64,000 bases of DNA. Origin: Bacteriovoracia bacterium (lineage in GTDB: Bacteria > Bdellovibrionota > UBA1018 > CAIPTA01). Position 1 is the stretch's first letter, and each line of letters starts with the position of its first letter. The translations under genes were made by a program, and so were the position numbers. The stretch is from contig JBFWVL010000001.1 in assembly GCA_050246755.1 (NCBI GenBank), positions 1,198,486 to 1,262,485 of the forward strand, written 5' to 3'. This document shows positions 12,344 through 61,137 of this stretch, one piece after another. The notes beneath the pieces were generated by a model, which saw only the letters and a list, made by a program, of their open reading frames with translations, was not told where the DNA came from and ran no database searches.

Positions 12344-12345
12344 AA

Positions 12346-40182: not shown

Positions 40183-40191
40183 GTAGCTCTC

Positions 40192-42132: not shown

Positions 42133-42142
42133 GACGAAATCC

Positions 42143-42460
42143 TTATTGCTTCATCTGGTTCAGCTGCGCGGTGCCCACTTCACGTAAGTTCCGATAGAGC
42201 GCAATTAAGAGGCCTAATCCGATCGCGCCCTCGGCGGCGGCCACGGTCACGATAAAAAACACCATGAGCTGGCCGTTCATATCTTGATTTAAGCGGGAAA
42301 AGGTCACGAGGGTGAGGTTCACGGCCGTGAGCATTAGCTCGATGCACATTAAAACCGCGATGAGGGAGCGGCGAAGCATAATGCCCGTAAGCCCAATCGC
42401 AAACAAGGCCGCGCCCGTTATTAGCGCTGGAAAAATCATGGGGTCCGCTAAGTGATGCAT
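42143..42460 (-). CDS. nuoK: NADH-quinone oxidoreductase subunit K
   Basis: 105 aa, three helices, conserved Glu in CIELMLTAVN and VAAAEGAIGL. Confidence 0.85.
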   Translation of the reverse strand: MHHLADPMIFPALITGAALFAIGLTGIMLRRSLIAVLMCIELMLTAVNLTLVTFSRLNQDMNGQLMVFFIVTVAAAEGAIGLGLLIALYRNLREVGTAQLNQMKQ

Positions 42461-42999: not shown

Positions 43000-43439
43000 T
43001 TCTTCGCCCTTTGAATCAAGAGATAATCTTTGTCATACACGCGGCGCTCGTAGTCGGCCATTTCGTAAATATTCGAAAGCTTAATGGCGTCCTTCGGGCA
43101 GGCTTCTTCACAAAAACCGCAAAAGCAGCAGCGTAAGATATCGATTTCGAATTTCACGGGATACTTCTCTTTATTGGCGCGCTCGCCGGCTTCAATGTGA
43201 ATGCAATCGGCGGGGCAAATCGTGGGGCAAAGCATGCAGGCCGTGCAGTTCTCCACGCCATTTACGGTTTTGATGTAATGCTGGCCACGGTAACGCGGAG
43301 AATAACTACGGCGCTCCTCGGGATATTGGTACGTGATGTTTTTTCCGAAAAACCAGAACTTCATCGTGATCAGAAGCCCTTTGAAGAGCTCGATCAAGTA
43401 GAAGCGCTGCAGAAATCCATGTTCGCGTTTAATCAGCAT
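42996..43439 (-). CDS. nuoI: NADH-quinone oxidoreductase subunit I (2x[4Fe-4S])
   Basis: 147 aa; two CxxCxxCxxxCP motifs (CTACMLCPTICP, CCFCGFCEEACP). Confidence 0.9.
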   Translation of the reverse strand: MLIKREHGFLQRFYLIELFKGLLITMKFWFFGKNITYQYPEERRSYSPRYRGQHYIKTVNGVENCTACMLCPTICPADCIHIEAGERANKEKYPVKFEIDILRCCFCGFCEEACPKDAIKLSNIYEMADYERRVYDKDYLLIQRAKK

Positions 43440-43448
43440 AAATTTTCC

Positions 43449-44552: not shown

Positions 44553-44555
44553 GAC

Positions 44556-45974: not shown

Positions 45975-45988
45975 TTTATTCCTTTAAT

Positions 45989-47278: not shown

Positions 47279-47751
47279 TAGCGGAACTCCTCAAGCACTT
47301 TATCGAGCTGTTTCTCATCGAAATTCTCGTGGTAGTCGTCGTTGATCTGGCAAACCGGCGCCGTGCCGCAAGATCCGAGGCACTCCACTTCGGAAATAGT
47401 GAACATTCCATCCTTGGTGGTACCACCCAGAGAAACACCGCACTTCTTTTCCGCGCGGTGAATGAGGTCTTCGGAGCCGCGCAGCCAGCATGCGATGTTA
47501 TTGCAAAACTGGAGGTTATACTTGCCCACCGGCTTGGTGTGGAACATGTGATAAAACGTAACCACTTCTTTCACCCGCGTTTTCGGAATCGCGAGAAAAT
47601 CGGCCACATCTTGCATCGTATCGTCGGAGATCCAGCCGCGGTCTTTTTGGGCCGCATGCAGAGCCGGTAAGAGCATGGCTAGCTTATTGGGATACATTCC
47701 TTGAATGCGGTCCATCTCGGCGTAAAATTCGTTTCCAAATTTCTTTTCCAT
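47278..47751 (-). CDS. nuoE: NADH-quinone oxidoreductase subunit E (2Fe-2S)
   Basis: 157 aa; CNNIACW...CLGSCGTAPV thioredoxin-like 2Fe-2S motif. Confidence 0.9.
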   Translation of the reverse strand: MEKKFGNEFYAEMDRIQGMYPNKLAMLLPALHAAQKDRGWISDDTMQDVADFLAIPKTRVKEVVTFYHMFHTKPVGKYNLQFCNNIACWLRGSEDLIHRAEKKCGVSLGGTTKDGMFTISEVECLGSCGTAPVCQINDDYHENFDEKQLDKVLEEFR

Positions 47752-47752
47752 A

Positions 47753-48994
47753 TTAGCGGTCTAACTCCCCGGCAATAATATTCACGGAACCAATCACGGC
47801 GATCACGTCGCCCACGTTTTCACCCTTCACCATCTCGTCTACGGGCTGGAACATGAAGAAAGAGGGGGCGCGGATACGCAAGCGGTAGGCCTTGGGACCG
47901 CCGCGGCTGATCGCGTAGAAGCCCATTTCGCCATTTGGGCCCTCCATAGGGCAGTACGCTTCTCCTGGAGGAACATCGAAACCTTCCATGAAAAATTTGA
48001 AATGGTGGATCAAGGACTCCATCGAATTATAAACGCGTTCCTTTTCCGGAATCTTCACGCGTTTATCGTCGGCCCAGATTGGGCCTTTGGGCATTTTCTG
48101 CGCGATCTGGCGGAGCATGCGGATGGATTCGAAAATTTCCGCCATACGCACCAGATAGCGATCGTACACGTCGCCGCCCTTTGCCACCGGAACGTCGAAC
48201 TCCAGCTCGCGGTACGCAAGATAAGGGCGGTCCCTGCGTAGGTCGATATTTACGTTGGAAGCGCGGAGGCAAGGGCCCGTCATCGAGTAAGCGAGTGCCT
48301 GTTCGGCGGTGAAAACGCCCACACCGCGGGTACGATCCACCCAGATACGGTTGTTCGTGAGCAGCTTGTCGAGCTCCTTAAAACATCTTTCGGTTTCATC
48401 AAGCCAAGCGTTCAGACGGGGAATGAAGCCATCGGGCAAATCACCAGAAAGACCGCCCACGCGGGTATAGGTGGTGGTCAACCGTGACCCACAGAGACTT
48501 TCGATCAAACTATAAGCTTCTTCGCGCTGGTGGAATCCGATGAGAAAGTAGGTCATGGCGCCAAGGTCGAAGGCATTGATGCCCACGCAAATGATATGAT
48601 CAATGATCCGCGCCATTTCGCAAACCATCGTGCGAATCCACACGTTGCGCGGAGGAATCTCGATGCCCATGAGCTTCTCGATCGTGGTCACGTAGGCCAC
48701 GTTATTCTGCAGGGCCGAACAATAATTCAGGCGGTCCGTATAGGGAATAAACTTATGGTAGGTTTTCACCTCGCCGAGCTTTTCCATCCCGCGATGCAAA
48801 TAACCGATCTCACATTTGCTCTCCTCCACCACTTCGCCGTTGAGCCGGCAAACGATACGAAGCGTTCCGTGGGTCGCCGGATGCTGGGGACCGATATTGA
48901 TAAGCATCTGCGAACTCTCGAAGATATCGCCATTATCGTCGTCTTCGAAGGCATCGCCTTTTCTAGGGAGCTGGAGTCCGGTTAGTTTATCCAT
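47753..48994 (-). CDS. nuoD: NADH-quinone oxidoreductase subunit D
   Basis: 413 aa; NIGPQHPATHGTLRIV, IGYLHRGMEKL, YTDRLNY, C-terminal GSVNIIAGELDR. Confidence 0.92.
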   Translation of the reverse strand: MDKLTGLQLPRKGDAFEDDDNGDIFESSQMLINIGPQHPATHGTLRIVCRLNGEVVEESKCEIGYLHRGMEKLGEVKTYHKFIPYTDRLNYCSALQNNVAYVTTIEKLMGIEIPPRNVWIRTMVCEMARIIDHIICVGINAFDLGAMTYFLIGFHQREEAYSLIESLCGSRLTTTYTRVGGLSGDLPDGFIPRLNAWLDETERCFKELDKLLTNNRIWVDRTRGVGVFTAEQALAYSMTGPCLRASNVNIDLRRDRPYLAYRELEFDVPVAKGGDVYDRYLVRMAEIFESIRMLRQIAQKMPKGPIWADDKRVKIPEKERVYNSMESLIHHFKFFMEGFDVPPGEAYCPMEGPNGEMGFYAISRGGPKAYRLRIRAPSFFMFQPVDEMVKGENVGDVIAVIGSVNIIAGELDR

Positions 48995-49647
48995 TATTCA
49001 CGCTCCAATACGGTCTTGGCCGAGCCTGGAGAGCCGATTGTTTTTTCTTTACGCAGCTCGTGCCGCGACATTCTCTCCGCCGATGGATCAAGACCGAAGC
49101 TATCGGTGGATGCCGATCCCTCGAAGCGCTGGTAGCGCTTAATGGGATAGTCCTTACGCTGGGGATGCCCCACCCAGCGCTCGTCGAGCAGAATGCGGTG
49201 CAGGTGGGGATGGCCCGAAAATCTCACGCCGTACATATCGAACACCTCGCGCTCCAGCCAATTGGCGGCCCTCCAGATGCCCACCACCGAGGGAGTTTCT
49301 TCTTCTTCTCTCACCCGCACCTTAATACGGATGCGGTCGTGGTTCTGCAGGGAAAAAAGCTGGTACACCACCACGAAGCGGTGCGCCCCGCCGGGGTTCT
49401 TCAAAGTGCCGAGGCCGTAGTCCGCGATCTTATCCAGCGGAGGATTATCATCGTAAGCGGTGAGATCAGAAAGGAAGCTGTACTCGAGGCCCTCTTCCGT
49501 GCGGATCGACTGCAAAAATTCTACGATTTTTTCTTTGCGCACGAAAAAAATAGGATCATCGGTATTTTCCGATACTACTTCCTCAATGGCATCGCCGTAA
49601 CGGGCTTTGATCCTGTCGATTTTTTCCTTCGGAAAATCCATCTTCAT
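48994..49647 (-). CDS. nuoC: NADH-quinone oxidoreductase subunit C
   Basis: 217 aa; [24 protein letters not shown] signature. Confidence 0.9.
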
Positions 49648-50126
49648 TGCAGCATCGCCTTACTTTTTTTAATTTTTTCCTGGAGCCGCATCACGCCGTG
49701 AATCACGCCCTCAGGAGAGGGCGGGCAGCCGGGAATATAGATGTCCACCGGAATTACTTCATCCGCACCCTGCATAACACTGTAGGTATCGAAAATGCCG
49801 CCGGAAGAAGAACAAGCGCCCATTGCGATCACCCACTTAGGATCGGCCATTTGCTCATAGAGAGTCTTGAGCACGGGGCCCATCTTCTCCGTGATCGTGC
49901 CGGCGATGATCATCATATCGCTCTGACGAGGAGAAAAGCGCACCACCTCGGCGCCGAAACGCGCAAGATCGTAGTCGGCCGAAAGCGTGGCCATCATCTC
50001 GATTCCGCAGCAGCTCGTACCGAAAGGATAGGGCCAGAGAGAGTTGGCTCTCGCCCAATTTACAAAATCTTCCAGTCTAGTAGTTAAAACATCCGGTGCG
50101 CCGTCTTTTGGCATATCGCCCCCCAT
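49644..50126 (-). CDS. nuoB: NADH-quinone oxidoreductase subunit B (N2 cluster)
   Basis: 160 aa; [23 protein letters not shown] cysteine motifs. Confidence 0.92.
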
Positions 50127-50151
50127 TCAGGCCGCTTCTGCGGCCCAGAAA

Positions 50152-50514
50152 CTATTCCCACTCGAGCCCGCCGCGGCGCCATTCGTATAAAAAGGCCACG
50201 GTAATCATGGTCATGAAAAATAGCATTACGCCGAGGATGAAAAAGTTCACCCCGAGAAATTTCCGGTACGCGAGGGCCCACGGAAAGAGCAGGGCTACCT
50301 CCACATCGAATAATAGAAAAGAAAGTGCCACGAGATAGAAGCGAACCGAAAAACGCTTTCTCGCGTCTCCACTAGGAGGTACGCCGCATTCGTATACGGA
50401 ATTTTTGAATTTATTAGGTCGCTTTGGTCCCAAGAGAGCCGCGCCGAAAATTACGGCGAACGAGATGCCTAACCCCACGAGAAACAAAAGCAAAACCGGA
50501 AAATACCCGGACAT
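50152..50514 (-). CDS. nuoA: NADH-quinone oxidoreductase subunit A
   Basis: 120 aa; YECG motif and FDVEVALLFPW; AGGGGG-type RBS upstream of the ATG. Confidence 0.88.
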   Translation of the reverse strand: MSGYFPVLLLFLVGLGISFAVIFGAALLGPKRPNKFKNSVYECGVPPSGDARKRFSVRFYLVALSFLLFDVEVALLFPWALAYRKFLGVNFFILGVMLFFMTMITVAFLYEWRRGGLEWE

Positions 50515-50556
50515 GCTGCACCCCCTAATGTGTGCAAAAAATTTAGCATGTTGGAT

Positions 50557-52011
50557 TTATTTAAGAAAGACTTTTGCAGTTTCGAAAAGTAAGGCAAATA
50601 CCCGATGCCAAAGGAATCCAAGCGCGGCGAGAGCAACGATTGCGACGGCTAACGAGAGCCACTCCAACGCGCCGTACCGAAACAGAACAAGAGGCGCAGT
50701 GTTTGTCGACGACGAAGCGCGTTGGCGGAATAGTAAATCCGTTCCCACGCGAATGGAAATTAGCGAAAGGGTGGCCACCAGCAGTACTTCGGCCGCGAGG
50801 AAAAATAGGGATTTCTGTTCCATCATCGCCGCCAAAAGATTCAATGCCATGGGAAATCCAGGTAAACCAGGAATGCAAAGCGGGCTGGCGAGCGCCAATA
50901 ATAGCAATAACCCCGAAGAGCGAAACGTGCGCGCGGCACCGTAGACATCTTTTAAATTTTCGCCGCCGGCACTTTCTTGAAATCGTCCCCAGTTAAAACC
51001 CAAAAGACTGGTCCAAACAAAAACCGAGGCAAAAGCATAGGTAATGGAGGATGCACTAAGTACGGTCGGCAATGCACCGGCCACTAAAATGGCCGACCAC
51101 TGCGCGCCCACTAGGGCACTGAAAAGACGCTTTGAATTTTCCTGCGTGAGCGCCACTAGGGCCAGCCAAAAGCCACCGCTAAGCCCACAGAGCTGTAACG
51201 TGCGCAGTCCCTCGGAAACTTCCCCGGGCCGAGCCTTGCCAAAAACCTCCACTCCCATTTTCCACAAAGCGAGGGTAACCGTTCCCTGCCAGATCACGGA
51301 AAGGGTTACCACTACCGGCCAGGGCATTCCTTGGTCGCGATCCACGTGCGCAAAGTGAAATGGAAAGAGTCCGGCGGCCATCACGAAGGGCAGGCAAAGC
51401 GCAAACACCACGAGAAGCGCGCTGAGGGAATAAATCGATTGCGCGTGAAGAAAAGAAGAGATCACATCATAGTGAACGCCGCCGGCGACCACGGCCAGAG
51501 CCGTAGCCGCGCCAAACCCACCCGCCATTACCAGAGAAGCTTGAATCCAGTACTTCAAGACGGCTTCCCCTTCACCGCGACCCCGAAACGCCAGGCCGCC
51601 GAGGAAAAGAGATAACCACGATCCGCAAACCAGAAGGATAATCGAAAGGGTCATCTGTCGGGAAAGCAGCAAGAGATCACAAAGCATTACCAGCGTGGAA
51701 AGCAGGAAAAGAACTTCGTGTTTTCTTTTTGCGGGTAACTCTTTGGTGGCCACAACGCCGCGCCCCAGGAGAAGGGCCGCCACGAAAAGAGCCGCACGCG
51801 GCAAACGGAAAAGCGGTTGATCTTCCAGAAGCCCGAACCAGATTTGGGACTGATCGGCCGATTGGCCCACGGCCAAGGTTGCCATTGCCGCCAAAAATCC
51901 GAGGCTTGAAAGAAATTCAATCGCCGTGCGCGAGCGAGAACTGCGGTTAAAAAGCAGCGCCACTCCTTGCGCTAGCGTGGCTAATCCGACGACTAAAATC
52001 GATAAGGGCAT
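50557..52011 (-). CDS. Divergent complex I antiporter-like membrane subunit (NuoN-like)
   Basis: 484 aa polytopic protein; EAVLKYWIQASLVMAGGFGA and GLFPFHFAHVDRDQGMP align by eye with nuoN EASVKYFVMGGASAAIYLYG and AAPFHMWAPDVYEGAP, but charged residues differ. Confidence 0.65.
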   Translation of the reverse strand: MPLSILVVGLATLAQGVALLFNRSSRSRTAIEFLSSLGFLAAMATLAVGQSADQSQIWFGLLEDQPLFRLPRAALFVAALLLGRGVVATKELPAKRKHEVLFLLSTLVMLCDLLLLSRQMTLSIILLVCGSWLSLFLGGLAFRGRGEGEAVLKYWIQASLVMAGGFGAATALAVVAGGVHYDVISSFLHAQSIYSLSALLVVFALCLPFVMAAGLFPFHFAHVDRDQGMPWPVVVTLSVIWQGTVTLALWKMGVEVFGKARPGEVSEGLRTLQLCGLSGGFWLALVALTQENSKRLFSALVGAQWSAILVAGALPTVLSASSITYAFASVFVWTSLLGFNWGRFQESAGGENLKDVYGAARTFRSSGLLLLLALASPLCIPGLPGFPMALNLLAAMMEQKSLFFLAAEVLLVATLSLISIRVGTDLLFRQRASSSTNTAPLVLFRYGALEWLSLAVAIVALAALGFLWHRVFALLFETAKVFLK

Positions 52012-52023: not shown

Positions 52024-53478
52024 CTAATTGCCATTTAATCCTTTCAGCAGGGCCGCCACCGATACTCCCATGGGCCCCAGAAGCAGGCTCGGCAAAACCC
52101 CTAAAACCAAAAGCACCAGACCAAGCGGTGCAATCGCAAGAATCTCTTCCCAAACCAAGTCGTGAAACTCTCCGCGATCTCCATCACCGGCCCCGGCGTC
52201 GAGACGAAAAAACATAATGCTCATCCCAGCAAAAGCAACCACCGGAACTGCTAGCGTAACCACGAGCAGCGGCCAGCTATGCACCCCGCTCAGCGACCAA
52301 ATAACGAAAAGTACCCCGTAGAATCCAATGGAAACCGGCAGAAAGAGCGCAAAAAGGGAGGCCGCCGCCGTGCTGAGCGCAAAGGCAGGAAATTCACGGA
52401 TTCTTTGGAGCGGTAAGGGGAATTTTCTTCTCTCGTGACAAGCAAGCACGAAGAGCATGAACGGAATAGAGAGCGTTTGGAAAAATAGGAGAATAAGAGA
52501 GCCGTGCCACCCTTTGGGATTTAAATTGAACAAGCCGATGGCGATGAACGAGCAAACGGTCTGCTGCAACCAAAATACGCGATCGCGCGCCTGGCGTGCG
52601 CCGAGAAAATTCAGCGCACAGTAAAGGGCGCCGATGGAGAAAAAGGCCAGAAGGTAATGGCCGAACCGCAAAAGCTCGCCGGGAAAAAGCTCCACCACGA
52701 AACGAGAGAGCAAAGTAAATCCCAGAAGCGGCTGCAGCGCTAGCGGCACCGCTTTTTCTACGGATTCCATTTCGAATATCCGGCGGGTGCTGCCGTGAAA
52801 GGGAAATATTCCGGCGCCGATCCCGAATGCCAGCAGCAATAATCCAAAGCCGATCGACCCCGGCAGTACCATATAGGTATCGCCCGATAGTCGGAACCAC
52901 TCCCCGATGGAACCACGGAATCCCTCCGAGAACGCCAGCACGCAAAGCAATAACGACAATGAAGCGATGGTAGAGAGAAAAGCCGCCTCGCGTACCGGCT
53001 CAATGCGATTTTCCTTTGCGTCTACCCCGGAAAATATAAATCGGGGGAGTAATGCGCCGGCAAAGAAAACAGAGAAAAGCAAAAGGTGATCAGCGCCTAG
53101 GGCACCGAGCACACAAGTCAAGTAGGCGGAAAGGCTGGCTACCGAGGCGCGGGATTTCTCGAGCATTCCCCTCGCCAGAAAGTGATAGCAAACGGTTACG
53201 GAAGAGACCGCTAGCGCCAATATTCCCGAATGAAATACCCAGCGGAGGCCCGTGTGATTCGACCAAGCGCTCTGGGCGAGAATCGCCGGAGAAAGCACGC
53301 TTCCGGCGTATTCGTTGGGCGAATAGAAGCCGATGGCCAAAAACAGAAAACAAACCCAAGAGAGAAGGTGCACCAACAACGAAAATGCCCAGAGCTTCTT
53401 CCCGCGCACGGGACCGCAAGCCGCCACCGTGACGAGCAGAGGCAAAAACGTAGCGATTAGTCCCGCCCAGCCTTTCAC
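52024..53478 (-). CDS. Divergent complex I antiporter-like membrane subunit (NuoM-like)
   Basis: ORF 52024..53520; start possibly GTG 53478 overlapping the upstream stop (GTGA). GIGAGIFPFHGSTRRIF aligns with nuoM AIKVPLFPLHTWLPDAH; polytopic. Confidence 0.6.
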   Translation of the reverse strand: MKGWAGLIATFLPLLVTVAACGPVRGKKLWAFSLLVHLLSWVCFLFLAIGFYSPNEYAGSVLSPAILAQSAWSNHTGLRWVFHSGILALAVSSVTVCYHFLARGMLEKSRASVASLSAYLTCVLGALGADHLLLFSVFFAGALLPRFIFSGVDAKENRIEPVREAAFLSTIASLSLLLCVLAFSEGFRGSIGEWFRLSGDTYMVLPGSIGFGLLLLAFGIGAGIFPFHGSTRRIFEMESVEKAVPLALQPLLGFTLLSRFVVELFPGELLRFGHYLLAFFSIGALYCALNFLGARQARDRVFWLQQTVCSFIAIGLFNLNPKGWHGSLILLFFQTLSIPFMLFVLACHERRKFPLPLQRIREFPAFALSTAAASLFALFLPVSIGFYGVLFVIWSLSGVHSWPLLVVTLAVPVVAFAGMSIMFFRLDAGAGDGDRGEFHDLVWEEILAIAPLGLVLLVLGVLPSLLLGPMGVSVAALLKGLNGN

Positions 53479-54818
53479 AGGATCCCCCCGGCCAGCTGCG
53501 TGGCCACGACAATGAAACACATCAGGAAAACTCCATACCCAGCGAAAGCGGCCGGGGCCGACTCGAGAGAGGATTCCGCTCCCGGCTCAGGAGGACGATC
53601 ATCCACAAAAATTCTTCGGCAGATATGCACGTTGGCGCAGAAGTAAAAAAACCAAAGCAAGCCGAATACGATGCCGTAGCTGATACCGAGATCGAGGGAA
53701 CGAGCGCCGATCCCACTGAAAATCTGAAACACCGGGGTGCCGGGCACTCCGAGGATAAGCGCGAAAAGAATTCCCACGAAAACCTTCTGTAGCGGGCGCA
53801 CCACTTTGACCACCGAAGCATAAAGTACTAGCCCGGTGAATACTGGTACGAAGAGACAGGTAAAGTACGCGGATAGTACTAAGCTTGTCTTCGAGACTCC
53901 CACCGAAACCAAAATGAGCGAAAAGAAAAAACTCGGTAGGCTTCCCAGCATTTTTCGCCTGGATCCGGCCGCAAAAAGACCGCTGATAGAAAAGGCGCAG
54001 CCGGAGATTCCCAGTAGATACAAAGCCAGCTTCTGCTTCCACCCCATATCGGGATAAACCACAGAAAAAAGCGTGGATATCTTCAAGGCCACCGCGCTGA
54101 TGAAGGTAACCAAGGTAACGGTTACGCCTTCCGGAAGATTTTCCACCGCCATACTGAACCATCGGGACCATGGCGGAAGCGGAATCGAGAGCACTACAAG
54201 GCCCAGCCAGATAAATAAACCGAGCGAAGAACCGGAGCGGGGGCCGAATAGCATATCCTTCGCGCCGAATTCCACCACGCCCCATACAATCATCAGCAGT
54301 CCCAACAAGAAGTAGAGGCTATACATACGGCGGGAAATTCTATCTCCCATCTCACGACTGGCCCCGGCAATGGCAAAGCGAATTAGGTAGAAGAACACCG
54401 CCGCCGCCAGCAAAAGCAAACCCCCAGTAGCTACCGCGTTGTTAGAAATTATAAAAAGGCTGGTAAACGCCTGCGCCAGCGATAGCAGCACGCTTACCAC
54501 TCGCAGGCCGCCCGCCACCGCCCCCATCGCATGGGCAAAAAGAAAGCAGAGTTCTGCGGTGAGCAAAAAACCAAGCCGGAAAGAATCAAGCGAGAGCACG
54601 AATTCGAGCGGATAACCATCAGCAAGCGAGGTAGAAATTTCAATTACCGCTCCGCCAAATACAACCGGGCGTAAAAGCACGATGAGAAGTAGAGCGCGAA
54701 GGCTCGACGCGATGATCCCCGGGGAAACGAGCCTTTTGTGAAATGCATTCGGCAAAGGTATCGCGGCGGCGAAGGGCAAAACTATATACAGTAAGAATAT
54801 TAGCCGTTCTAAGCTCAT
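53475..54818 (-). CDS. Divergent complex I antiporter-like membrane subunit (additional NuoM/N-like paralog)
   Basis: 447 aa polytopic protein; IPLPPWSRWFSMAVENLPEG loosely aligns with the antiporter-like PLFPLHTWLPDAHVQAP region; 4-nt overlap with upstream gene. Confidence 0.55.
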   Translation of the reverse strand: MSLERLIFLLYIVLPFAAAIPLPNAFHKRLVSPGIIASSLRALLLIVLLRPVVFGGAVIEISTSLADGYPLEFVLSLDSFRLGFLLTAELCFLFAHAMGAVAGGLRVVSVLLSLAQAFTSLFIISNNAVATGGLLLLAAAVFFYLIRFAIAGASREMGDRISRRMYSLYFLLGLLMIVWGVVEFGAKDMLFGPRSGSSLGLFIWLGLVVLSIPLPPWSRWFSMAVENLPEGVTVTLVTFISAVALKISTLFSVVYPDMGWKQKLALYLLGISGCAFSISGLFAAGSRRKMLGSLPSFFFSLILVSVGVSKTSLVLSAYFTCLFVPVFTGLVLYASVVKVVRPLQKVFVGILFALILGVPGTPVFQIFSGIGARSLDLGISYGIVFGLLWFFYFCANVHICRRIFVDDRPPEPGAESSLESAPAAFAGYGVFLMCFIVVATQLAGGIL

Positions 54819-56563
54819 TTAGCCCCCAGGAGAAAGAGCACTCCGGCGAAAAGCGTGAGCACGGTTCCAAAAAACAAATAAAAGCGAATATTTCCGGAAT
54901 GAAGAAAACGCATCAGCCGAGAAAGCGAGGATCCGTAAGCGAGAAAACCACCCGGAAATTTCTCGGCAAAGAGCATCCGATCCGTCTCTTGCAGGGCACT
55001 GGCAGCGCGAATATTTATGGTTCCAGCTCTAAGCGCAATCCAGTCCATTCCTTTTTCGGGCGCAAGCACGGCCGCCTGATTCCAGCGGACAACCGCAGGA
55101 TCGATTCGCGGAAAAAGATCTTCCATTTTCTTTTCCTTATTGGCGCTCCAAATACTAAGGCGAGAATTAGCTCCAAGGAGCATACCCGCCAACCCTCCCA
55201 CCAGCAGGGCGGCCCCGCGCACTACAAGGGAAATATCGGATAAGAAATCTATCGGGAACTGAAGCAGCCCGGACAACCCATCGTAGGCCCGGAATAGAGC
55301 GGCCAGTTGAATCAGGATAACCAGTGACGCGGGCAAAACCGCGGAAGCGAAAGTAAAATTATTTTCCTTCTCTTTGTTCTGCCGCAGAGAACCCACCAAT
55401 GCCTTCACGGCCACCAGAGAAAGCAGAAAAGTGAGTATTCCCATGATGGCTATTTTCAAGATCGTTTCCCGATTCTCGGTATGCGCCGAAGGTACGCTCG
55501 TAAAAGGAACCACGCCGGAGATGATTCCCAGCAAAAACAGTGTGGCTAAGAATATGAGCGCCGTTCGCCACGCTTGGGCACTTTGGCGGGCGAAGCGGAG
55601 CAAAAGGCTTAGGGCGTAACAAGAAAGCAGGCCCATCGCTTCGAAGGCTCCCCAGCTTAATTCTTCCGGCTTTAAAGACGAGAAGCGCAGAAAGAGGATG
55701 TATCCAAAAATGCCGAATAACATCCAAAAGCTGGCGCTAAGCGTGGTGGAGGCGAGAAAAGACAAAGCCGAAAACAGTGCCGTGGCAACTGCAAATAGCG
55801 CCGAAAGCGGGATCCATAATTCGCCCGACATGTCCTCGTGGATAACTCTACCCAGCAGAAAAAAGGCCGTACCCGCCTGAATCAACGCGAGCGGAACATA
55901 GCGCCACTCGCTGAAATTATGCTTAGAAAGCATGAATGCCATCACGTAAAGCACCATGCCGAGCAGAACGACGGAGCTATTGGTAAAGAAGCTCGCCGCG
56001 GTGAGGCCGAGCATCGCGATCAATCCGAGAAATAAAAAACTATTTCGCTTAAAATAGGAAATTCTCTCGAGCTCGCCCTCTGTGCCGCCCATTTCTAGGC
56101 TGAAAGAATGCAAGAGGAAAACGGTGATTTCGATGAACATCAGCGAAAGGAGCGCGTTCTCGCTCAAGTAGGCGAGGGCCAGGAATAAGAACGAACCGCT
56201 TAGGAATAGAAAGCGCAGCGTACCCCTCGCGCCGCCGAAGGAAGAAGCGCCGTCGAACATGACCAAACCAAGCAAAACGGAGGCAGAAAGAAAAATCCAA
56301 ACGTACCGCACCCAATACATGAGTAACGACGGCTCAAAATAGCCGGAAGTGTCGGTGGAAAGGGGCAATAGAAATTCCATTTTCACCGGAAGCTCAAACT
56401 GAAAAATCCCGATTAGGGAGGCGAGCAGCATCGTGCCGAACAAAATAAGACCGCCACGCTTCTCGGAATCGGAACGGCGATCGCTCTTAAGCGCAAACAA
56501 AACCAGCGCCGCAAGCGGGGCGCAGAATATAAGCAGTGGCACTACGATATTCCCAAAATTCAT
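54815..56563 (-). CDS. Divergent complex I antiporter-like membrane subunit (NuoL-like by position and length)
   Basis: 582 aa polytopic protein immediately after the NuoK-like gene, with extended C-terminal region; canonical NuoL motifs not recognizable by eye. Confidence 0.55.
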   Translation of the reverse strand: MNFGNIVVPLLIFCAPLAALVLFALKSDRRSDSEKRGGLILFGTMLLASLIGIFQFELPVKMEFLLPLSTDTSGYFEPSLLMYWVRYVWIFLSASVLLGLVMFDGASSFGGARGTLRFLFLSGSFLFLALAYLSENALLSLMFIEITVFLLHSFSLEMGGTEGELERISYFKRNSFLFLGLIAMLGLTAASFFTNSSVVLLGMVLYVMAFMLSKHNFSEWRYVPLALIQAGTAFFLLGRVIHEDMSGELWIPLSALFAVATALFSALSFLASTTLSASFWMLFGIFGYILFLRFSSLKPEELSWGAFEAMGLLSCYALSLLLRFARQSAQAWRTALIFLATLFLLGIISGVVPFTSVPSAHTENRETILKIAIMGILTFLLSLVAVKALVGSLRQNKEKENNFTFASAVLPASLVILIQLAALFRAYDGLSGLLQFPIDFLSDISLVVRGAALLVGGLAGMLLGANSRLSIWSANKEKKMEDLFPRIDPAVVRWNQAAVLAPEKGMDWIALRAGTINIRAASALQETDRMLFAEKFPGGFLAYGSSLSRLMRFLHSGNIRFYLFFGTVLTLFAGVLFLLGAK

Positions 56564-56578: not shown

Positions 56579-56899
56579 CTAATGCCGCAAACTATCTTCT
56601 TCATCCACATCCAGCGTTCCGCGAAATCGGCTACAGCGGTGCAATACCAGCAGACCCACCGCCACGAGCGCGGGAACCATTCCCAATGCCACTAACGAGA
56701 GCACGATGAGATCTCCGCCGCCGGAAGAAAAATATTGCGAGAATAAAAATCCACATGCCACCACGGCCTTAAGTGCGGTGGCCTGACCCACCAGCCCCCA
56801 TGCCGCCACCCGGCGCAGCGCGATGGCCGAAAGGCCCGCCACAAATACGGCCAAGAGCAAGATCACGTTAATTTTGTTTGCCACCGAGGTTAAATCCAT
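56579..56899 (-). CDS. Divergent NuoK-like small membrane subunit
   Basis: Track ORF 56579..57289 overlaps the NuoJ-like gene in another frame; start taken at ATG 56899 (MDLTSVANKINVILLLAVFVAG...), giving 106 aa with three hydrophobic helices at the NuoK position. Confidence 0.55.
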   Translation of the reverse strand: MDLTSVANKINVILLLAVFVAGLSAIALRRVAAWGLVGQATALKAVVACGFLFSQYFSSGGGDLIVLSLVALGMVPALVAVGLLVLHRCSRFRGTLDVDEEDSLRH

Positions 56900-57393
56900 T
56901 ACCGCTCCCTCCGCACAAGGAAGAATCCTCCGGTAACGATTACGATCAGGAAAAGCAGCGGAATCACCGCTAGCAGCCAGTCGGAGGTCCAGATTTTTTC
57001 GTGGAGCAGAGACAAACTTGGCGCCGGCGTCACCCCCGGTGGCATCAACTCCTCGAGCTCCAAGATCGCCAGCGCGCCGGTGACCACCGAGCAAAGGCCT
57101 AGCCATAGGAAAAACAGGCGATACAGCCAATCGGCACGGCGATTGCGGGCCGGGCGCGCGGGAAGCAGTTCTTGGGTGCGAAAATAAAGATAAATAGCGA
57201 AATCGGCCGAAAGAAATACCGCAATCATCATAATCCCAAAGTATCCGCCACTCATGAGTTCTACGGCCGCGCCCAAGCCAATGGAGCAAAGAATAGATCC
57301 CCAGAGTAAACGTTCGGTGGAATCGGCGGTGATCGCCATAATCGCGGAAATCAATGCCAACGCCAAACAGCTGCCAACAAAAAATGAGATCAT
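56899..57393 (-). CDS. Divergent NuoJ-like membrane subunit
   Basis: 164 aa, hydrophobic helices, in the J position between the NuoI-like and NuoK-like genes. Confidence 0.55.
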   Translation of the reverse strand: MISFFVGSCLALALISAIMAITADSTERLLWGSILCSIGLGAAVELMSGGYFGIMMIAVFLSADFAIYLYFRTQELLPARPARNRRADWLYRLFFLWLGLCSVVTGALAILELEELMPPGVTPAPSLSLLHEKIWTSDWLLAVIPLLFLIVIVTGGFFLVRRER

Positions 57394-57863
57394 CGTCTCA
57401 CCTCGTAAGTACGAATACGGGTGATGTCTTTATCGCTCTTCTGGCCGCCACCACGAAATACGGCGATTAAATCTTTCGTGCTCTCGGTAACGATTTCAAA
57501 TTCTTTGGAATAGGAAAGGCTAGCCTCGGGACAGATCTCGATACAAACACCGCACGAAAAGCATTTTCCCAAATGAATATTGAATTCTTGCACGCGAATC
57601 GTACCGTCGCGCAGGTTCTCGGAAGTAAAATCAATTGCCTTCACCGGACAGGCCGGAACGCAAAGACCGCATCCACTGCACTTCGATAAATCATTGGTCA
57701 CGTAGCCCTTATAGCTAGTGAACATGTCTAATGGGGCCTTGGCGGACACTAGGTCTGGATACTTTTCCACGACGCTTTTGTAACGATGCTTCGTACGGCG
57801 CAGAAAGCCGAAATTGATTTTCAGCGTGCTCTTGAGGGCGTTAATTACCTGCCTGACCTTCAT
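57390..57863 (-). CDS. Divergent NuoI-like 2x[4Fe-4S] ferredoxin subunit
   Basis: ORF 57390..57911; start probably Met17 at 57863 (ATGA overlap with upstream stop); two CxxCxxCxxxCP motifs (CSGCGLCVPACP, CFSCGVCIEICP). Confidence 0.75.
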   Translation of the reverse strand: MKVRQVINALKSTLKINFGFLRRTKHRYKSVVEKYPDLVSAKAPLDMFTSYKGYVTNDLSKCSGCGLCVPACPVKAIDFTSENLRDGTIRVQEFNIHLGKCFSCGVCIEICPEASLSYSKEFEIVTESTKDLIAVFRGGGQKSDKDITRIRTYEVRR

Positions 57864-58795
57864 CCGCGCACCCCCACCCAAACGGCTTCGAGAAAGAATC
57901 CGATGAGACATAGACGCAATAGCCAGCGGGCCGCCAATTCACTGGCGTCGGCCGAGCGAATCTTAGGAAAACTAGCCTGCAGAAGGGTGAACACGAATAT
58001 TCCGGCCGCCACTTTCAGCGGAAAGAGAACTTTCACGATGAGCCCGCTGGCCCCTCCGCAAAAAACGTATACCCAGAAACAAATCAAAGAGAATACCCAC
58101 ATTTTCTGCACGAAAATCGTGATGTATTGCATCGAGTGATTGAGGCTCTGCTCATCTTGCAGCTGCACTGGACTTTCCGTGGCGAAAAGGAAAATGGAGC
58201 AGAAGGCGGTTATGCCGCAAAGGAAAAGACCCGGACTGCTCAGCAGCGCGTGATAGGGGAAATAAATCTGAAAATCCGAAATCGCGCTCAAGTTGAGCTG
58301 ACCCACCCTTAGGGTTACGGCGAAAACCGATAGCAGCAATCCCGAAACTCCCATCGCCCGAAGCAAAAGCCGGCGGCGGCGGTCGAAACGCTCGCGTGAA
58401 TCGGCGGTGGCATGCACCAGCAGCGCCTCTAAAGCGGCCGCGATCATCGGAAAAAGCAGCAGGAGTGGAAGATCAATTTGATCGCCGCCCTCCGGGTAAG
58501 TTACCGCCAGCAAAGCCAGCAGGAATACTATGGGAAGAATTCGCCAAACCAAGGAGGCGAGACGTATCCGAAACGGCAGGGCCAATAAATCCGCCGGCTT
58601 CTTTTTCCGGGTTTTCTGAAAATCTTTCCAGACCTGAAAAAAATCCGTTTGCCCATGCCGGCCGGGCCCGTCGCGATGCTGCACGCGAGCAGCGACGAAG
58701 CGTTCGCAAAAAAGAAGGAAGAAGGTTCCCCCAAAGAGAAAGAGTAGCGAGCCCACGAGCGCCGCCCCGGCGAGCAAGAAATCTAGCGCACTCAT
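57860..58795 (-). CDS. Divergent NuoH-like membrane subunit
   Basis: 311 aa; RVQHRDGPGRHGQTDFFQVWKDFQK aligns with NuoH RxGPNxVGxxGLLQxxADxxK; polytopic. Confidence 0.7.
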   Translation of the reverse strand: MSALDFLLAGAALVGSLLFLFGGTFFLLFCERFVAARVQHRDGPGRHGQTDFFQVWKDFQKTRKKKPADLLALPFRIRLASLVWRILPIVFLLALLAVTYPEGGDQIDLPLLLLFPMIAAALEALLVHATADSRERFDRRRRLLLRAMGVSGLLLSVFAVTLRVGQLNLSAISDFQIYFPYHALLSSPGLFLCGITAFCSIFLFATESPVQLQDEQSLNHSMQYITIFVQKMWVFSLICFWVYVFCGGASGLIVKVLFPLKVAAGIFVFTLLQASFPKIRSADASELAARWLLRLCLIGFFLEAVWVGVRG

Positions 58796-59868
58796 TTGTC
58801 TACCTCCGAAAAGGAGATATCGAGCGAATGAATCACGAGGAAAGCGTCTTCCGCGTGAATTCCGCGCAGCAGGCGCGGCAGCACCTGAACCGCCATAGCC
58901 GAAGGGCAGAAAAAACTTACTTGCGACGGCTGCGAACGGCCATCGGATTCAACCATCGCGTAGATAGCTCCGCGAGGGCCCTCCACGCCACAAACTGCTT
59001 TTCCGGGCGCCGGGCGCACGTCTAGACCCACCCGGATGCGGTGGTTACCCGAAGGAATATGGCGAAATACGGATTCGATGAGCTGAGCCGACTGCAAAAT
59101 TTCCCGCTTGCGAATGTGTGCGCGGTCGAACGCGTCTCCCAGATAATTCCTCGAGGTGTCTAGCATCATCTCTGTGCCACGATAAGCGCCGTAGGGGCGC
59201 GAAACCCGAAGATCGCAGTCCGCTAAGCCGCTCGCACGCGCGTTAGGACCAGTAATATTCCAATTTTTAACCATCGCCGCATCTAACTGGCCCAAACCCC
59301 GGGTGCGCTTTTCGAAAAACGGGTGCGTAAGGAGGGAGCTTTCTAGATCCGGCAAAAATTCTCTTAAGCTGGCCACGGCTTTTTCGATTTTAAAAAACCA
59401 TCCGTCGGTGGCGTCGCTGATCACTCCACCAAGGCAAATAGAGCCGAAACCAAGGCGCGAACCGCAATACATCTCAAATATATCCGCGAAGCGCTCGCGT
59501 TCCCGGAGGCAGTGATTCATGATCGCAGCCTGCCCGGCAGCCCTGGCCAAATTTCCGTAGTAATGAAGATGGCTGGCAATTCGGTTGAGCTCGAGCAGAA
59601 TTAGGCGAATCTGCTCAGACCGAGCCGAGATTTCTATGCGCAGCAAGTCTTCGCAGGCCGAGGCAAGAGCGAAATTGAAGGCCGGAGCCGCGAGATAATC
59701 GAGGCGATCCATGTAATTTAGGGCTTGGGCTAAAGGTAGCTGCAATGCGATCGCTTCCAGGCTACGGCGTCCATAACCCACGGTCATCCGGGCGTCGGCC
59801 ACTAAGCCACCGTCTTCTTCGAGCTTCAGCCCGAAAGCACCGATTCCCTGCGTTCCCGCAAGATACAT
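58792..59868 (-). CDS. Divergent NuoD-like (49-kDa-type) subunit; no NiFe-binding cysteine motifs
   Basis: ORF 58792..59967; start probably Met34 at 59868. LAGTQGIGAFGLKLEEDGGLV / VGYGRRSLEAI / YMDRLDY / HSLDISFSEVDK align with canonical nuoD GPQHPATHGTLRIV / IGYLHRGMEKL / YTDRLNY / GSVNIIAGELDR. No CxxC pairs at either terminus. Confidence 0.75.
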   Translation of the reverse strand: MYLAGTQGIGAFGLKLEEDGGLVADARMTVGYGRRSLEAIALQLPLAQALNYMDRLDYLAAPAFNFALASACEDLLRIEISARSEQIRLILLELNRIASHLHYYGNLARAAGQAAIMNHCLRERERFADIFEMYCGSRLGFGSICLGGVISDATDGWFFKIEKAVASLREFLPDLESSLLTHPFFEKRTRGLGQLDAAMVKNWNITGPNARASGLADCDLRVSRPYGAYRGTEMMLDTSRNYLGDAFDRAHIRKREILQSAQLIESVFRHIPSGNHRIRVGLDVRPAPGKAVCGVEGPRGAIYAMVESDGRSQPSQVSFFCPSAMAVQVLPRLLRGIHAEDAFLVIHSLDISFSEVDK

Positions 59869-59879
59869 AGGAGTATAAT

Positions 59880-60272
59880 CTAAAGTGGTCGCCACGTGGC
59901 GTCCCTTTCTGGAATCATGCCGGCGAACTCTACTCCGTTGAAAGTGCGTAGCTCTTCTTCCCACCAAAGACTAAACGGCCAGAGGGCGCTGGGGCGCGGA
60001 AAGGCCGAAGAAGGAGCAACTTCCAGAATAAAAAAGATCGGTTCATTTCCGCACGTAAGCAGCAGCTCGATGGAAAGATTCGTGCCCGCGCCGGCCGTCG
60101 ATAACCCATGCAAAGCGGGGCGTTCGCCAGAGGGTAGCGCGCCCCAATGCTCGAGCAATTTTGCCAGCTCCGAAGTTCCCGCCTGGACGCGAGAAACTTT
60201 ATCTCCGGCCGCAGGGGTGCCCGGCACCTTCACGATGCCTCCCCAAATATTTTTTTCTCCGCCTGATCTCAC
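59880..60272 (-). CDS. Divergent, shortened NuoC-like (30-kDa-type) subunit
   Basis: 130 aa; LWPFSLWWEEELRTFNGVEFAG aligns with canonical [22 protein letters not shown]. Confidence 0.6.
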   Translation of the reverse strand: MRSGGEKNIWGGIVKVPGTPAAGDKVSRVQAGTSELAKLLEHWGALPSGERPALHGLSTAGAGTNLSIELLLTCGNEPIFFILEVAPSSAFPRPSALWPFSLWWEEELRTFNGVEFAGMIPERDATWRPL

Positions 60273-60718
60273 GACGCGGACCTCCGGATTTTTTCCTGCA
60301 ATTTAATCAGCGCATGAATCAATGACTCCGGTCGTGGAGGACAGCCCGGAATAAAAAGATCCACGGGAATTATGGCCTCGAGACCCGGGATACGATGTTT
60401 TCCTTCGGCCGAAAACATTCCACCGGTGCTGGCGCAACTGCCAACGGCCACCACGAATTTTGGATCGCGCATCTCGGCGTAAATCTTTTTCAGTTCTTCG
60501 GCAATGCCGGGAGTTACCGGGCCTGAAACAAAGAGCACATCGGCGTTACGATGATCGGTCACAATCCGGCAACCGAGCCTCTCCCAATCGAATCTCGGTC
60601 CGGAAGCAGCTTCCACTTCCAGGGTACAGCAAGAAAGCCCCACATGATAAACCCATAACGAATCCGCGAGCGCGGATTTTGGCTGAGAGGGAGCGGATTC
60701 TTTTTGGATCTCCATCAT
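60269..60718 (-). CDS. Divergent NuoB-like (PSST-type) subunit with N2-cluster cysteines retained
   Basis: 149 aa; SCCTLEVEA, GSCASTGG, PGCPP: all four N2 cysteine ligands in canonical spacing. Confidence 0.8.
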   Translation of the reverse strand: MMEIQKESAPSQPKSALADSLWVYHVGLSCCTLEVEAASGPRFDWERLGCRIVTDHRNADVLFVSGPVTPGIAEELKKIYAEMRDPKFVVAVGSCASTGGMFSAEGKHRIPGLEAIIPVDLFIPGCPPRPESLIHALIKLQEKIRRSAS

Positions 60719-61137
60719 TGGTTTTCCTTATCGGGCCACTCGAGATTGTCTATCCACTTCAGGTAGCTTTTACGGCCGCCGTACCAAAGTAGGGCCAGCA
60801 TCAACGCGGGAAAAATCAAAACCTTTCCCATCACCAGCCAGCGGTCGTGCATTTCGAGGGAAACTATTTTTTGCCGGTACGAAGCCCACATCGGCAAAGA
60901 GAGTGCGATTCCGCACCAGAGCATTAGCAGCCAAAGAACGTGATAGAATGAACGGAACGCACCTTCCGGGGCGCCGTTCCCTGGCTCACGAATTCCCTGA
61001 ACCTTTTCGAGACGATCCCATAGCACGAGCACCAAAATGGCCACAAAAAGCAGCACTGCTGGAATTAAAAAGAGGAGAAATCTAGAATACATCTGCCGTC
61101 CTTGAGTTTCAGTGCCTCTTCCCACAGCCATATTCAC
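60715..61137 (-). CDS. Divergent NuoA-like small membrane subunit
   Basis: 140 aa (start ambiguous: GTG 61137, ATG 61131 or ATG 61092); three hydrophobic helices; C-terminal YLKWIDNLEW resembles NuoA YEWRRGGLEW. Confidence 0.5.
   Translation of the reverse strand: MNMAVGRGTETQGRQMYSRFLLFLIPAVLLFVAILVLVLWDRLEKVQGIREPGNGAPEGAFRSFYHVLWLLMLWCGIALSLPMWASYRQKIVSLEMHDRWLVMGKVLIFPALMLALLWYGGRKSYLKWIDNLEWPDKENQ

What the first reader, a model, noticed from the sequence alone, without database searches (positions are those of the whole stretch)
56579..61137. Small membrane subunits of the divergent module lack the conserved acidic residues of NuoK and NuoA
Canonical nuoK here has glutamates in two helices (CIELMLTAVN, VAAAEGAIGL). 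The NuoK-like protein has no Glu/Asp inside any predicted helix (TM2 VAAWGLVGQATALKAVVACGFLF, TM3 LIVLSLVALGMVPALVAVGLL). Likewise canonical nuoA FDVE aligns with WCGI in the NuoA-like protein. Loss of these residues, needed for proton translocation in complex I, points to a non-pumping or mechanistically different membrane arm.
Basis: partly seen in the sequence, partly recalled or inferred. Interest (0 to 1): 0.65.

Follow-up and report, generated by a model that had tools for sequence, protein, structure and literature searches.

The report
Charge-stripped second complex I in Bdellovibrionota
The missing acidic residues are real, and they are one sign that this bacterium carries, next to its normal respiratory complex I genes, a complete second 12-gene copy that has lost nearly all residues needed for quinone chemistry and proton pumping, yet is still kept by selection.

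Summary
Observation confirmed. The NuoK-like ORF (56579-56899, minus strand) aligns to E. coli NuoK. Both helix glutamates (E36, E72) are replaced by small or hydrophobic residues in all 15 orthologues examined. The NuoA-like ORF (60715-61092) has no acid in TM2; canonical FDVE aligns with W-CG.

The loss runs through the whole 12-gene module A-B-C-D-H-I-J-K-L-M-M'-N (61137 to 50557):
- The NuoM-like and NuoN-like subunits have lost all four TM5/TM7/TM8/TM12 Lys/Glu.
- The NuoD-like family (81 clusters) lacks the quinone His and Asp, and keeps the Tyr in only 28 of 81.
- The NuoH-like TM5-6 loop is gutted.
- Some relatives have lost the N2 cluster cysteines.

All 12 genes are nevertheless under purifying selection (dN/dS 0.03-0.2). 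Their order is fixed, and they always sit directly upstream of a fully competent canonical nuoA-N, in one Bdellovibrionota clade only. Two large subunits have no sequence match to any family but fold as NuoL-like and MrpD/NuoM-like proteins.

Best reading: a conserved, catalytically degenerate complex I paralogue that cannot pump by the canonical mechanism. Its positive function is unknown. I found no description of it in the literature searched.

The parts
60715..61137 (-). A2, the NuoA-like 3-TM subunit. The longest ORF is 140 aa from a GTG; the likely start is the ATG at 61092, giving 125 aa as in the orthologues. No Asp/Glu in TM2. PEGAFRxFYH is invariant within the close clade and degenerate in the three distant orthologues; the C-terminal YLKWID..WPD motif is conserved.
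60269..60718 (-). B2, NuoB-like. The four N2-cluster Cys are present in the window copy, but are lost in part in relatives L001, L007 and L005.
59880..60272 (-). C2, a truncated NuoC-like subunit (130 aa against 217 aa for canonical NuoC).
   Evidence: hhalign 85%, 90 columns; Pfam Complex1_30kDa hit in distant orthologue L018
58792..59967 (-). D2, NuoD-like. The NCBI call is 367 aa, which I compute starts near 59895. It lacks the quinone-site His34, His38 and Asp139. Tyr87 is present here but is not conserved in the family. There are no NiFe cysteine motifs.
57860..58795 (-). H2, NuoH-like. The N-terminal ER..Q.R.GP..G..Q..D..K motif is kept. The TM5-6 loop has lost most of its acids and carries an 8-residue deletion.
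57390..57911 (-). I2, NuoI-like (likely 157 aa, starting at 57863). All 8 Cys of the two 4Fe-4S clusters are invariant in 15 orthologues.
56899..57393 (-). J2, in the NuoJ position. No detectable sequence similarity to NuoJ. Four hydrophobic segments pass the hydropathy threshold and a fifth (about residues 28-50) is evident by eye. An Asp (D64) in the third segment is invariant.
56579..56899 (-). K2, NuoK-like 3-TM subunit. The E36 and E72 equivalents are replaced. K44 in TM2 is invariant; Q39 (14 of 15) and the VP pair in TM3 are nearly so.
54815..56563 (-). L2, NuoL-like by fold only. It has a long C-terminal lateral helix followed by a final TM with an HSGN.R.Y motif. The TM5 Glu (E145) is invariant, and position 214 at the end of TM7a is K or R.
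53475..54818 (-). M2a, an extra antiporter-like subunit recognised by fold only (MrpD/NdhD/NuoM-like). No conserved charge in TM5, TM7 or TM12. K246 in TM8 is kept.
52024..53520 (-). M2b, NuoM-like (hhalign 97.8%). E144 aligns with A, K234 with G, K265 with L and E407 with V.
50557..52011 (-). N2, NuoN-like (hhalign 94.8%). E133 aligns with V, K217 with A, K247 with Q and K395 with A.
37113..50514 (-). Canonical nuoA-N, 42 nt downstream of N2. All the reference acids and lysines are present in nuoA, nuoK, nuoL, nuoM and nuoN.

Best explanation
K2 and A2 are the NuoK and NuoA counterparts of a complete, conserved, catalytically degenerate paralogue of respiratory complex I. It has 12 subunits in nuo order, ABCDHIJKL-M-M'-N, includes four antiporter-like subunits, and has no N-module of its own.

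The missing acids are part of a coordinated, module-wide removal of the coupling machinery:
- the NuoD Tyr/His/Asp quinone-protonation site;
- the NuoH loop acids;
- the NuoA and NuoK E-channel acids;
- the TM5/TM7/TM8/TM12 Lys/Glu of three of the four antiporter-like subunits.

Shown: the subunits are homologous or fold-equivalent to Nuo subunits; the residues are absent across the clade; the genes are under purifying selection and tightly packed; and the module always lies directly upstream of an intact canonical nuo operon.

Inferred: the proteins still assemble into an L-shaped complex. That complex cannot move protons along the canonical central axis and probably does not reduce quinone in the canonical way. 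It most likely acts as a non-pumping auxiliary or structural partner made together with the active complex I. Which positive function selection is maintaining is not known.
For: - K2 is a NuoK homologue lacking both Glu in 15 of 15 orthologues.
- A2 lacks the TM2 acids.
- M2b and N2 lack all four key residues.
- D2 family, 81 clusters: His38 0 of 81, Asp139 0 of 81, Tyr87 28 of 81. The 37 nearest ordinary NuoD have each residue in 36 of 37.
- The H2 loop is degenerate.
- B2 N2-cluster ligands are lost in L001 and L007, and one in L005.
- dN/dS is 0.03-0.2 for 11 of the 12 genes between the window and its closest relative L015; for B2, dS was too saturated to compute.
- Gene order and the nuoA-N neighbour are identical in every locus fetched that reaches them.
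- Start and stop codons overlap along the module, and nothing terminator-like lies in the 42-nt gap before nuoA.
- L2 and M2a fold as NuoL-like and MrpD/NuoM-like proteins.
- The mechanistic importance of the lost sites is set out in PMC10212512 and PMC9802314.
Against: - All 8 Cys of I2 are invariant, and most relatives keep the N2 ligands. This suggests that electron transfer may still matter.
- L2 keeps an invariant TM5 Glu and a K/R at the end of TM7a.
- K2 has an invariant TM2 Lys and J2 an invariant TM3 Asp. These could belong to a rewired pathway.
- Keeping twelve genes, four of them large membrane proteins, for a purely structural role is costly, and I know of no precedent.
- No expression, assembly or activity data exist.
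- The residue mapping for M2a and L2 rests on helix order in AlphaFold models plus motif anchors, not on a superposition.
Confidence: 0.6

Rival explanations
1. It is an uncoupled redox isozyme. The module borrows NuoEFG from the operon downstream, or takes electrons from a ferredoxin. It passes them through the I2 and B2 clusters to quinone or another acceptor without pumping, acting as a redox-balancing NADH dehydrogenase.
For: - The I2 clusters are invariant, and the N2 ligands are kept in the window and most relatives.
- The module has no E, F or G genes but sits upstream of nuoEFG.
- There is a proposed precedent: Syntrophobacter fumaroxidans has one nuoEFG set and two sets of the remaining genes (Spero et al. 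2015, PMC4453560).
Against: - The Tyr/His/Asp quinone site is degenerate across the family.
- The N2 ligands are lost in at least two independent assemblies while the rest of the module stays conserved.
- An uncoupled dehydrogenase has no obvious need for four antiporter-like subunits.
Confidence: 0.2
2. It is a rewired transporter. The arm still moves an ion or another substrate, using a different set of residues: K2 K44, J2 D64, L2 E145 with K/R214, and M2a R41, E89, H96 and K246. In that case the module is a mechanistically new kind of complex I relative.
For: These residues are invariant or nearly so and lie inside predicted helices. Purifying selection on all membrane subunits is strong.
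Against: M2b and N2, which lie between the E-channel and L2, keep no conserved protonatable residue at any of the four canonical sites. No continuous path is therefore evident. The redox trigger (the Q site) is also degenerate.
Confidence: 0.13
3. It is an artefact or decay product. On this view the ORFs are pseudogenes or are not Nuo homologues, so the missing acids mean nothing.
For: A2, C2, J2, L2, M2a, M2b and N2 have no Pfam hit in the window copy. The A2, L2 and M2a profiles have no PDB sequence hit.
Against: - The reading frames are intact in every assembly examined, and dN/dS is far below 1.
- Synteny is fixed.
- Profile-profile or fold matches exist for all subunits except J2.
Confidence: 0.02

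Closest known systems
Canonical bacterial complex I (NDH-1, nuoA-N), as encoded 42 nt downstream in the same window
   Same: - Same subunit set and gene order for A, B, C, D, H, I, J, K, L, M and N.
- NuoB, NuoD, NuoH, NuoI and NuoK are recognisable by Pfam.
- NuoM, NuoN and NuoC are recognisable by hhalign.
- NuoL is recognisable by fold, with a lateral helix.
   Different: - No E, F or G genes, and an extra antiporter-like subunit.
- Quinone His/Asp lost, and the Tyr variable.
- E-channel acids of A and K lost.
- TM5/7/8/12 Lys/Glu lost in the M'-like and N-like subunits.
- Only 22-28% identity to the neighbouring canonical subunits.
11-subunit complex I relatives without an N-module (NUO11, NUO11+M, cyanobacterial NDH-1)
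   Same: It lacks nuoEFG and has 11 core subunits plus an extra M, matching the 'NUO11+M' label used by Degli Esposti 2015 (PMC4758237). The nearest ordinary NuoD relatives are short NuoDs of 366-391 aa at 34-37% identity.
   Different: Those enzymes keep H38, D139 and Y87. From general knowledge, they also keep the charged central axis. This module does not.
Second nuo gene set sharing one nuoEFG (Syntrophobacter fumaroxidans, Spero et al. 2015)
   Same: Two sets of the non-EFG genes with a single nuoEFG.
   Different: I know of no report of catalytic-residue loss there. Here the second set is degenerate and is fused head-to-tail to the canonical operon.
'2M' complex I with a second NuoM (Chadwick et al. 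2018, recalled from memory, not retrieved)
   Same: Four antiporter-like subunits in the membrane arm.
   Different: As I recall, 2M enzymes keep the pumping residues and have a lengthened NuoL lateral helix. L2 is shorter than canonical NuoL (582 aa against 646 aa), and the other three subunits lack the residues.
Ehr complexes and group 4 membrane-bound hydrogenases, MBS and Mrp
   Same: They share NuoB/D/H/I-like and antiporter-like modules. Ehr large subunits have also lost their ancestral active-site ligands (Marreiros et al. 2013, from memory).
   Different: The gene order here is strictly nuo-type, with A, J, K and N counterparts. D2 scores best against NuoD models and has no NiFe cysteine motifs. 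There are no MrpE, F or G genes.

Membership tests
NuoK / ND4L (Pfam PF00420) | Sequence match to the family profile at or above the curated threshold | tested here: met
   27.7 bits against a gathering score of 26.1. The profile matches E. coli NuoK at E=3.8e-6. NCBIfam NuoK models match only below their cut-offs.
NuoK / ND4L (Pfam PF00420) | Three TM helices, encoded between the J-position and L-position genes | tested here: met
   Full-length collinear alignment to the 3-TM E. coli NuoK. Gene order is J2-K2-L2 in every locus where all three genes are held.
NuoK / ND4L (Pfam PF00420) | Conserved Glu in TM2 (E36) and in TM3 (E72) | tested here: not met
   Both positions are Ala, Val, Leu or similar in 15 of 15 orthologues.
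NuoA / ND3 (Pfam PF00507) | Sequence match to the family profile | tested here: inconclusive
   No hit for the window copy. Six of 12 orthologues give sub-threshold hits, best E=0.014. hhalign against canonical NuoA gives 54.7%, E=1.2e-4. The PDB profile search found nothing.
NuoA / ND3 (Pfam PF00507) | Three TM helices, first gene of the operon, directly before nuoB | tested here: met
   Three hydrophobic segments. The position upstream of B2 holds in all loci that reach it.
NuoA / ND3 (Pfam PF00507) | Acidic pair in TM2 (E. coli D79/E81; FDVE in the canonical copy here) | tested here: not met
   FDVE aligns with W-CG, and no acid occurs in TM2 in any of 12 orthologues. The E. coli numbering is from memory (Kao et al. 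2004).
Proton-pumping complex I (NDH-1) | Core Q-module and P-module subunits A, B, C, D, H, I, J, K, L, M and N | tested here: met
   All positions are filled. Ten of 11 are supported by sequence, profile or fold. J is supported by position and topology only.
Proton-pumping complex I (NDH-1) | Quinone-site Tyr87, His38 and Asp139 in NuoD (T. thermophilus numbering) | tested here: not met
   His 0 of 81, Asp 0 of 81, Tyr 28 of 81 in the family. The outgroup has each in 36 of 37.
Proton-pumping complex I (NDH-1) | Cys ligands of FeS clusters N2, N6a and N6b | tested here: inconclusive
   N6a and N6b are invariant. N2 is intact in the window but its ligands are lost in L001 and L007, and one in L005.
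Proton-pumping complex I (NDH-1) | Charged central axis: TM5 Glu, TM7 Lys, TM8 Lys/His and TM12 Lys/Glu in each antiporter-like subunit | tested here: not met
   M2b and N2 have lost all four. M2a has no conserved charge in TM5, TM7 or TM12. L2 keeps only the TM5 Glu and a K/R at the end of TM7a.
Proton-pumping complex I (NDH-1) | NADH-oxidising N-module (NuoE, F, G) | tested here: not met
   None lies within the module. The only nuoEFG genes in the window belong to the canonical operon.
Group 4 [NiFe] hydrogenase | N-terminal and C-terminal CxxC NiFe-binding motifs in the large subunit | tested here: not met
   The D2 N-terminal loop is ...GTQGIGAFG... and the C-terminus is ...HSLDISFSEVDK, with no Cys. 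The hydrogenase model scores are negligible.
Mrp-type antiporter | MrpA/MrpD-like subunits together with MrpE, F and G, and no redox module | tested here: not met
   Antiporter-like folds are present, but they are embedded in a nuo-type operon with B-, C-, D-, H- and I-like genes.

The most novel reading that the evidence does not exclude
An entire respiratory complex has been converted into a conserved pseudo-enzyme. On this reading, the 12-subunit 'pseudo-complex I' assembles but neither reduces quinone nor pumps. It is kept because it partners with the active complex I made from the same transcript, as a scaffold, a supercomplex or membrane-organising partner, or a regulator. A variant of the same reading is that it has acquired a wholly new membrane function that uses its own conserved residues.
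Probability: 0.4. Interest if true: 0.85.

Novelty: new variant of a known kind. Interest (0 to 1): 0.74.

Why it matters
Complex I research still debates which charged residues carry protons and how the quinone site drives the distant antiporter-like subunits. This module is a natural, evolutionarily stable version of the full architecture in which almost every one of those residues has been removed at once. The folds, the subunit order and, probably, the assembly are kept.

If it assembles, it shows what the scaffold does without its chemistry. It would also be a ready-made negative control for structural and biophysical work. And it raises a new question: what selective benefit could a charge-free complex I arm give to one clade of Bdellovibrionota?

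There is also a practical annotation point. Seven of the 12 genes have no Pfam hit, and the L-like and extra M-like ones are named 'hypothetical protein' where the source databases give any name, so the module is invisible to routine pipelines.

Tried and rejected
- HMM profile searches of the A2, L2 and M2a families against all PDB sequences found nothing at E<=10.
- An L2 profile against 1.84 billion representative proteins found only 32 relatives, none of them an ordinary NuoL. The distant ones have no Pfam hit.
- J2 shows no similarity to NuoJ by hhalign or Pfam. Its assignment rests on position and topology only.
- I first assigned Asp139 to the RIIDH motif. This was wrong; the Asp lies in the FDLGAM motif. 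I corrected it and recounted.
- Relocation of the Glu residues within K2 is rejected, because no acid exists in any K2 helix. Relocation to J2 (D64) is kept as part of a rival explanation.
- The hydrogenase, Ehr and Mrp readings are rejected on gene order, model scores and the absence of Cys motifs.
- The pseudogene reading is rejected by dN/dS and conserved reading frames.
- Six literature searches found no description of the module. The Peredibacter paper describes two ordinary nuo clusters 37.5-41.5% identical to each other, which is a different matter.
- Torres-Bacete 2012 (PMC3522275) is not held, so the NuoK and NuoA mutagenesis facts are from memory.
- The promoter and terminator scan gave nothing above chance.


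Full report
**Layout**

All the relevant genes are on the minus strand. From 61137 down to 50557 lie twelve tightly packed ORFs. Many start and stop codons overlap, and the gaps are at most 15 nt. Canonical nuoA follows 42 nt after the last ORF. The canonical operon nuoABCDEFGHIJKLMN then runs down to 37113.

Pfam and NCBIfam recognise five of the twelve: NuoB-like, NuoD-like, NuoH-like, NuoI-like and, just above threshold, NuoK-like (27.7 bits against 26.1). The other seven have no hit. They are the first gene, the third gene, the gene before the K-like one, and four large membrane proteins of 582, 447, 498 and 484 aa. The rest of the window is ordinary chromosome: rpoD, dnaG, dnaK, a recN-like gene, malic enzyme and sensor kinases.

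**The observation**

The K-like ORF is 56579-56899, 106 aa.
- Alone it aligns to E. coli NuoK (3rko_K) at E=1.4e-4. As a 12-sequence profile it reaches 3.8e-6 and also finds mycobacterial NuoK.
- In both alignments E36 and E72 face Ala, Val or Leu.
- D63 aligns with the loop Asp of E. coli NuoK, so it is not a helix acid.

I collected orthologues from three GTDB genomes and eleven metagenome or MAG contigs. These gave 15 K-like sequences down to about 20% identity.
- None has Asp or Glu in TM2 or TM3.
- A TM2 Lys (K44) is invariant.
- A Gln five residues before it is present in 14 of 15.

The first gene (A2; likely 125 aa from the ATG at 61092) has three hydrophobic segments and no acid in TM2 in any of 12 orthologues. 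Its homology to NuoA is moderately supported:
- six of 12 members give sub-threshold Oxidored_q4 hits;
- profile-profile alignment with the canonical NuoA family gives 54.7%, E=1.2e-4, running from the FY at the start of TM2 to the C-terminal R..YL.W;
- there is no PDB sequence hit.

In that alignment canonical FDVE faces W-CG.

**What the module is**

Family profiles built from 15 loci were compared with the canonical subunits of the window:

| Module subunit | Canonical match | hhalign probability | Aligned columns |
|---|---|---|---|
| 498-aa protein (M2b) | NuoM | 97.8% | 381 |
| 484-aa protein (N2) | NuoN | 94.8% | 330 |
| H2 | NuoH | 79% | 277 |
| C2 | NuoC | 85% | 90 |
| K2 | NuoK | 60% | 89 |

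The 582-aa and 447-aa proteins gave nothing, including against all PDB sequences. A profile of the 582-aa family found only 32 relatives among 1.84 billion representative proteins, none of them an ordinary NuoL.

AlphaFold models settled both.
- The 582-aa protein (pLDDT 78, pTM 0.78) matches NuoL/ND5/NdhF chains first (E about 2e-8, 12-14% identity). It has a 45-residue C-terminal helix followed by a last TM that carries an HSGN.R.Y motif.
- The 447-aa protein (pLDDT 88.8, pTM 0.91) matches MrpD, NdhD and NuoM/N/L at TM-scores of 0.77-0.81 for the best matches.

The module is therefore A-B-C-D-H-I-J-K-L-M-M'-N, with four antiporter-like subunits and no E, F or G. Only J2 lacks any support beyond position and topology.

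**The loss is module-wide**

From the hhalign alignments:

| Subunit | TM5 | TM7 | TM8 | TM12 |
|---|---|---|---|---|
| M2b (NuoM numbering) | E144 → A | K234 → G | K265 → L | E407 → V |
| N2 (NuoN numbering) | E133 → V | K217 → A | K247 → Q | K395 → A |

- The canonical copies next door keep all of these.
- M2a has no conserved charged residue in the model's TM5, TM7a/b or TM12a/b apart from Arg at helix ends. It keeps a TM8 Lys, K246. This mapping uses helix order and motif anchors, so it is an inference.
- L2 keeps an invariant mid-TM5 Glu (E145, 40 of 40) and K or R at the end of TM7a (36 of 40).

In the NuoD-like family I compared 81 clusters with the 37 nearest ordinary NuoD sequences:

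| Quinone-site residue | D2 family | Nearest ordinary NuoD |
|---|---|---|
| His38 | 0/81 | 36/37 |
| His34 | 1/81 | 36/37 |
| Asp139 | 0/81 | 36/37 |
| Tyr87 | 28/81 (Phe in 42) | 36/37 |

Other subunits:
- In H2 the TM5-6 loop [25 protein letters not shown] has become ATESPVQLQDE, then an 8-residue gap, then QSLNHS.
- All eight Cys of I2 are invariant.
- The N2 ligands of B2 are intact in the window. In L001, SCC is replaced by SFS and PGC by PGN. In L007, SCC is replaced by ECS and PGC by PGS. These are two independent assemblies. One ligand is also replaced in L005.

**Why these residues matter**

The Sazanov review (PMC10212512) makes these points:
- The E-channel is formed by ND1, ND3, ND6 and ND4L and contains the key glutamates.
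- K_E36 and K_E72 hold protons that are eventually pumped.
- The NuoCD His/Asp pair donates the substrate protons whose replacement starts the proton movements.
- The TM5/7, TM8 and TM12 sites are described as the minimum necessary.

Jarman and Hirst (PMC9802314) confirm the importance of the Glu-Lys pair and the terminal residue in Nqo13. The mutagenesis of NuoK E36/E72 and NuoA D79/E81 (Yagi laboratory) is recalled from memory; the papers were not held.

**It is not decay**

- Between the window and its closest relative L015, dN/dS is 0.03-0.20 for 11 of the 12 genes. dS is saturated, so these values are rough, and for B2 the ratio could not be computed.
- The gene order is identical in every locus. 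In the loci that extend upstream, an opposite-strand mfd sits immediately upstream, with the two SurA-like genes beyond it in nearly all of them and a TPR gene and serS further out where the locus reaches that far. nuoA lies immediately downstream, 42-240 nt away.
- The module evolves faster than its neighbour: 40-76% identity for most subunits (C2 about 30%) against 69-97% between the same genomes.
- D2 is closer to short NuoDs of other phyla (34-37%) than to its own neighbour (27-28%). The module is therefore not a recent duplicate.
- Every source that names an organism says Bdellovibrionota, apart from two partial contigs labelled only 'Proteobacteria bacterium'. The window's own proteins are 'MAG: Bacteriovoracia bacterium'.

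**Interpretation**

- Shown: a conserved 12-subunit complex I paralogue whose coupling residues are gone from the quinone site to the NuoN-like subunit.
- Inferred: it assembles (tight translational coupling, conserved interface motifs), it is co-transcribed with canonical nuo (no terminator-like signal in the gap), and it cannot pump by the canonical mechanism.

I rank a non-pumping, probably non-quinone-reducing auxiliary partner of complex I first (0.6). The rivals are:
- an uncoupled redox isozyme sharing NuoEFG, for which Syntrophobacter fumaroxidans is a proposed precedent;
- a rewired transporter using the module's own invariant residues (K2 K44, J2 D64, L2 E145 with K/R214, M2a E89, H96 and K246).

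**Novelty**

Searches of the held literature found nothing on this module. I file it as a new variant within the complex I superfamily. It is not a member of proton-pumping complex I, because several defining features were tested and not met.

Noticed in passing
L001:5855-6289, L007:5831-6277, L005:5785-6252 (B2 orthologues): The cysteine ligands of FeS cluster N2 are replaced in some relatives: SCC to SFS or ECS, PGC to PGN or PGS, and GSC to GSS. The rest of the module stays conserved, and the NuoI-like clusters stay intact.
   Followed up: partly
window 56579-56899 and 56899-57393: The NuoK-like protein has an invariant Lys in TM2 (K44). The J-position protein has an invariant Asp in its third hydrophobic segment (D64). 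They might form a buried ion pair that replaces the E-channel glutamates. This was not tested.
   Followed up: no
window 54815-56563: The module has one more antiporter-like subunit than usual, yet the NuoL-like protein is shorter than canonical NuoL (582 aa against 646 aa). Its predicted lateral helix is about 45-66 residues long, so it may not span three neighbouring subunits.
   Followed up: no
window 44556-45974: Canonical NuoG is short (472 aa) and has only a remnant of the molybdopterin domain. The orthologues in the related loci are of similar length (472-477 aa).
   Followed up: no
window 50515-50556 and the related loci: The gap between the last module gene and canonical nuoA is 42-49 nt in 7 of the 11 loci with called genes, and up to about 240 nt in the rest. 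No hairpin or terminator signal was seen in the window's 42-nt gap.
   Followed up: partly
window 58792-59967: NCBI names one orthologue 'NADH-quinone oxidoreductase subunit D-related protein', so its pipeline already separates this family from NuoD. The L-like and extra M-like proteins are named 'hypothetical protein' wherever a source gives a name.
   Followed up: no
window 768-4119 and 8846-10522: A cluster of PAS-domain histidine kinases and a hybrid response-regulator kinase lies far upstream. A tRNA-Met gene is at 5578-5654, and rpoD and dnaG at 10535-14226. This is ordinary core-chromosome context.
   Followed up: no
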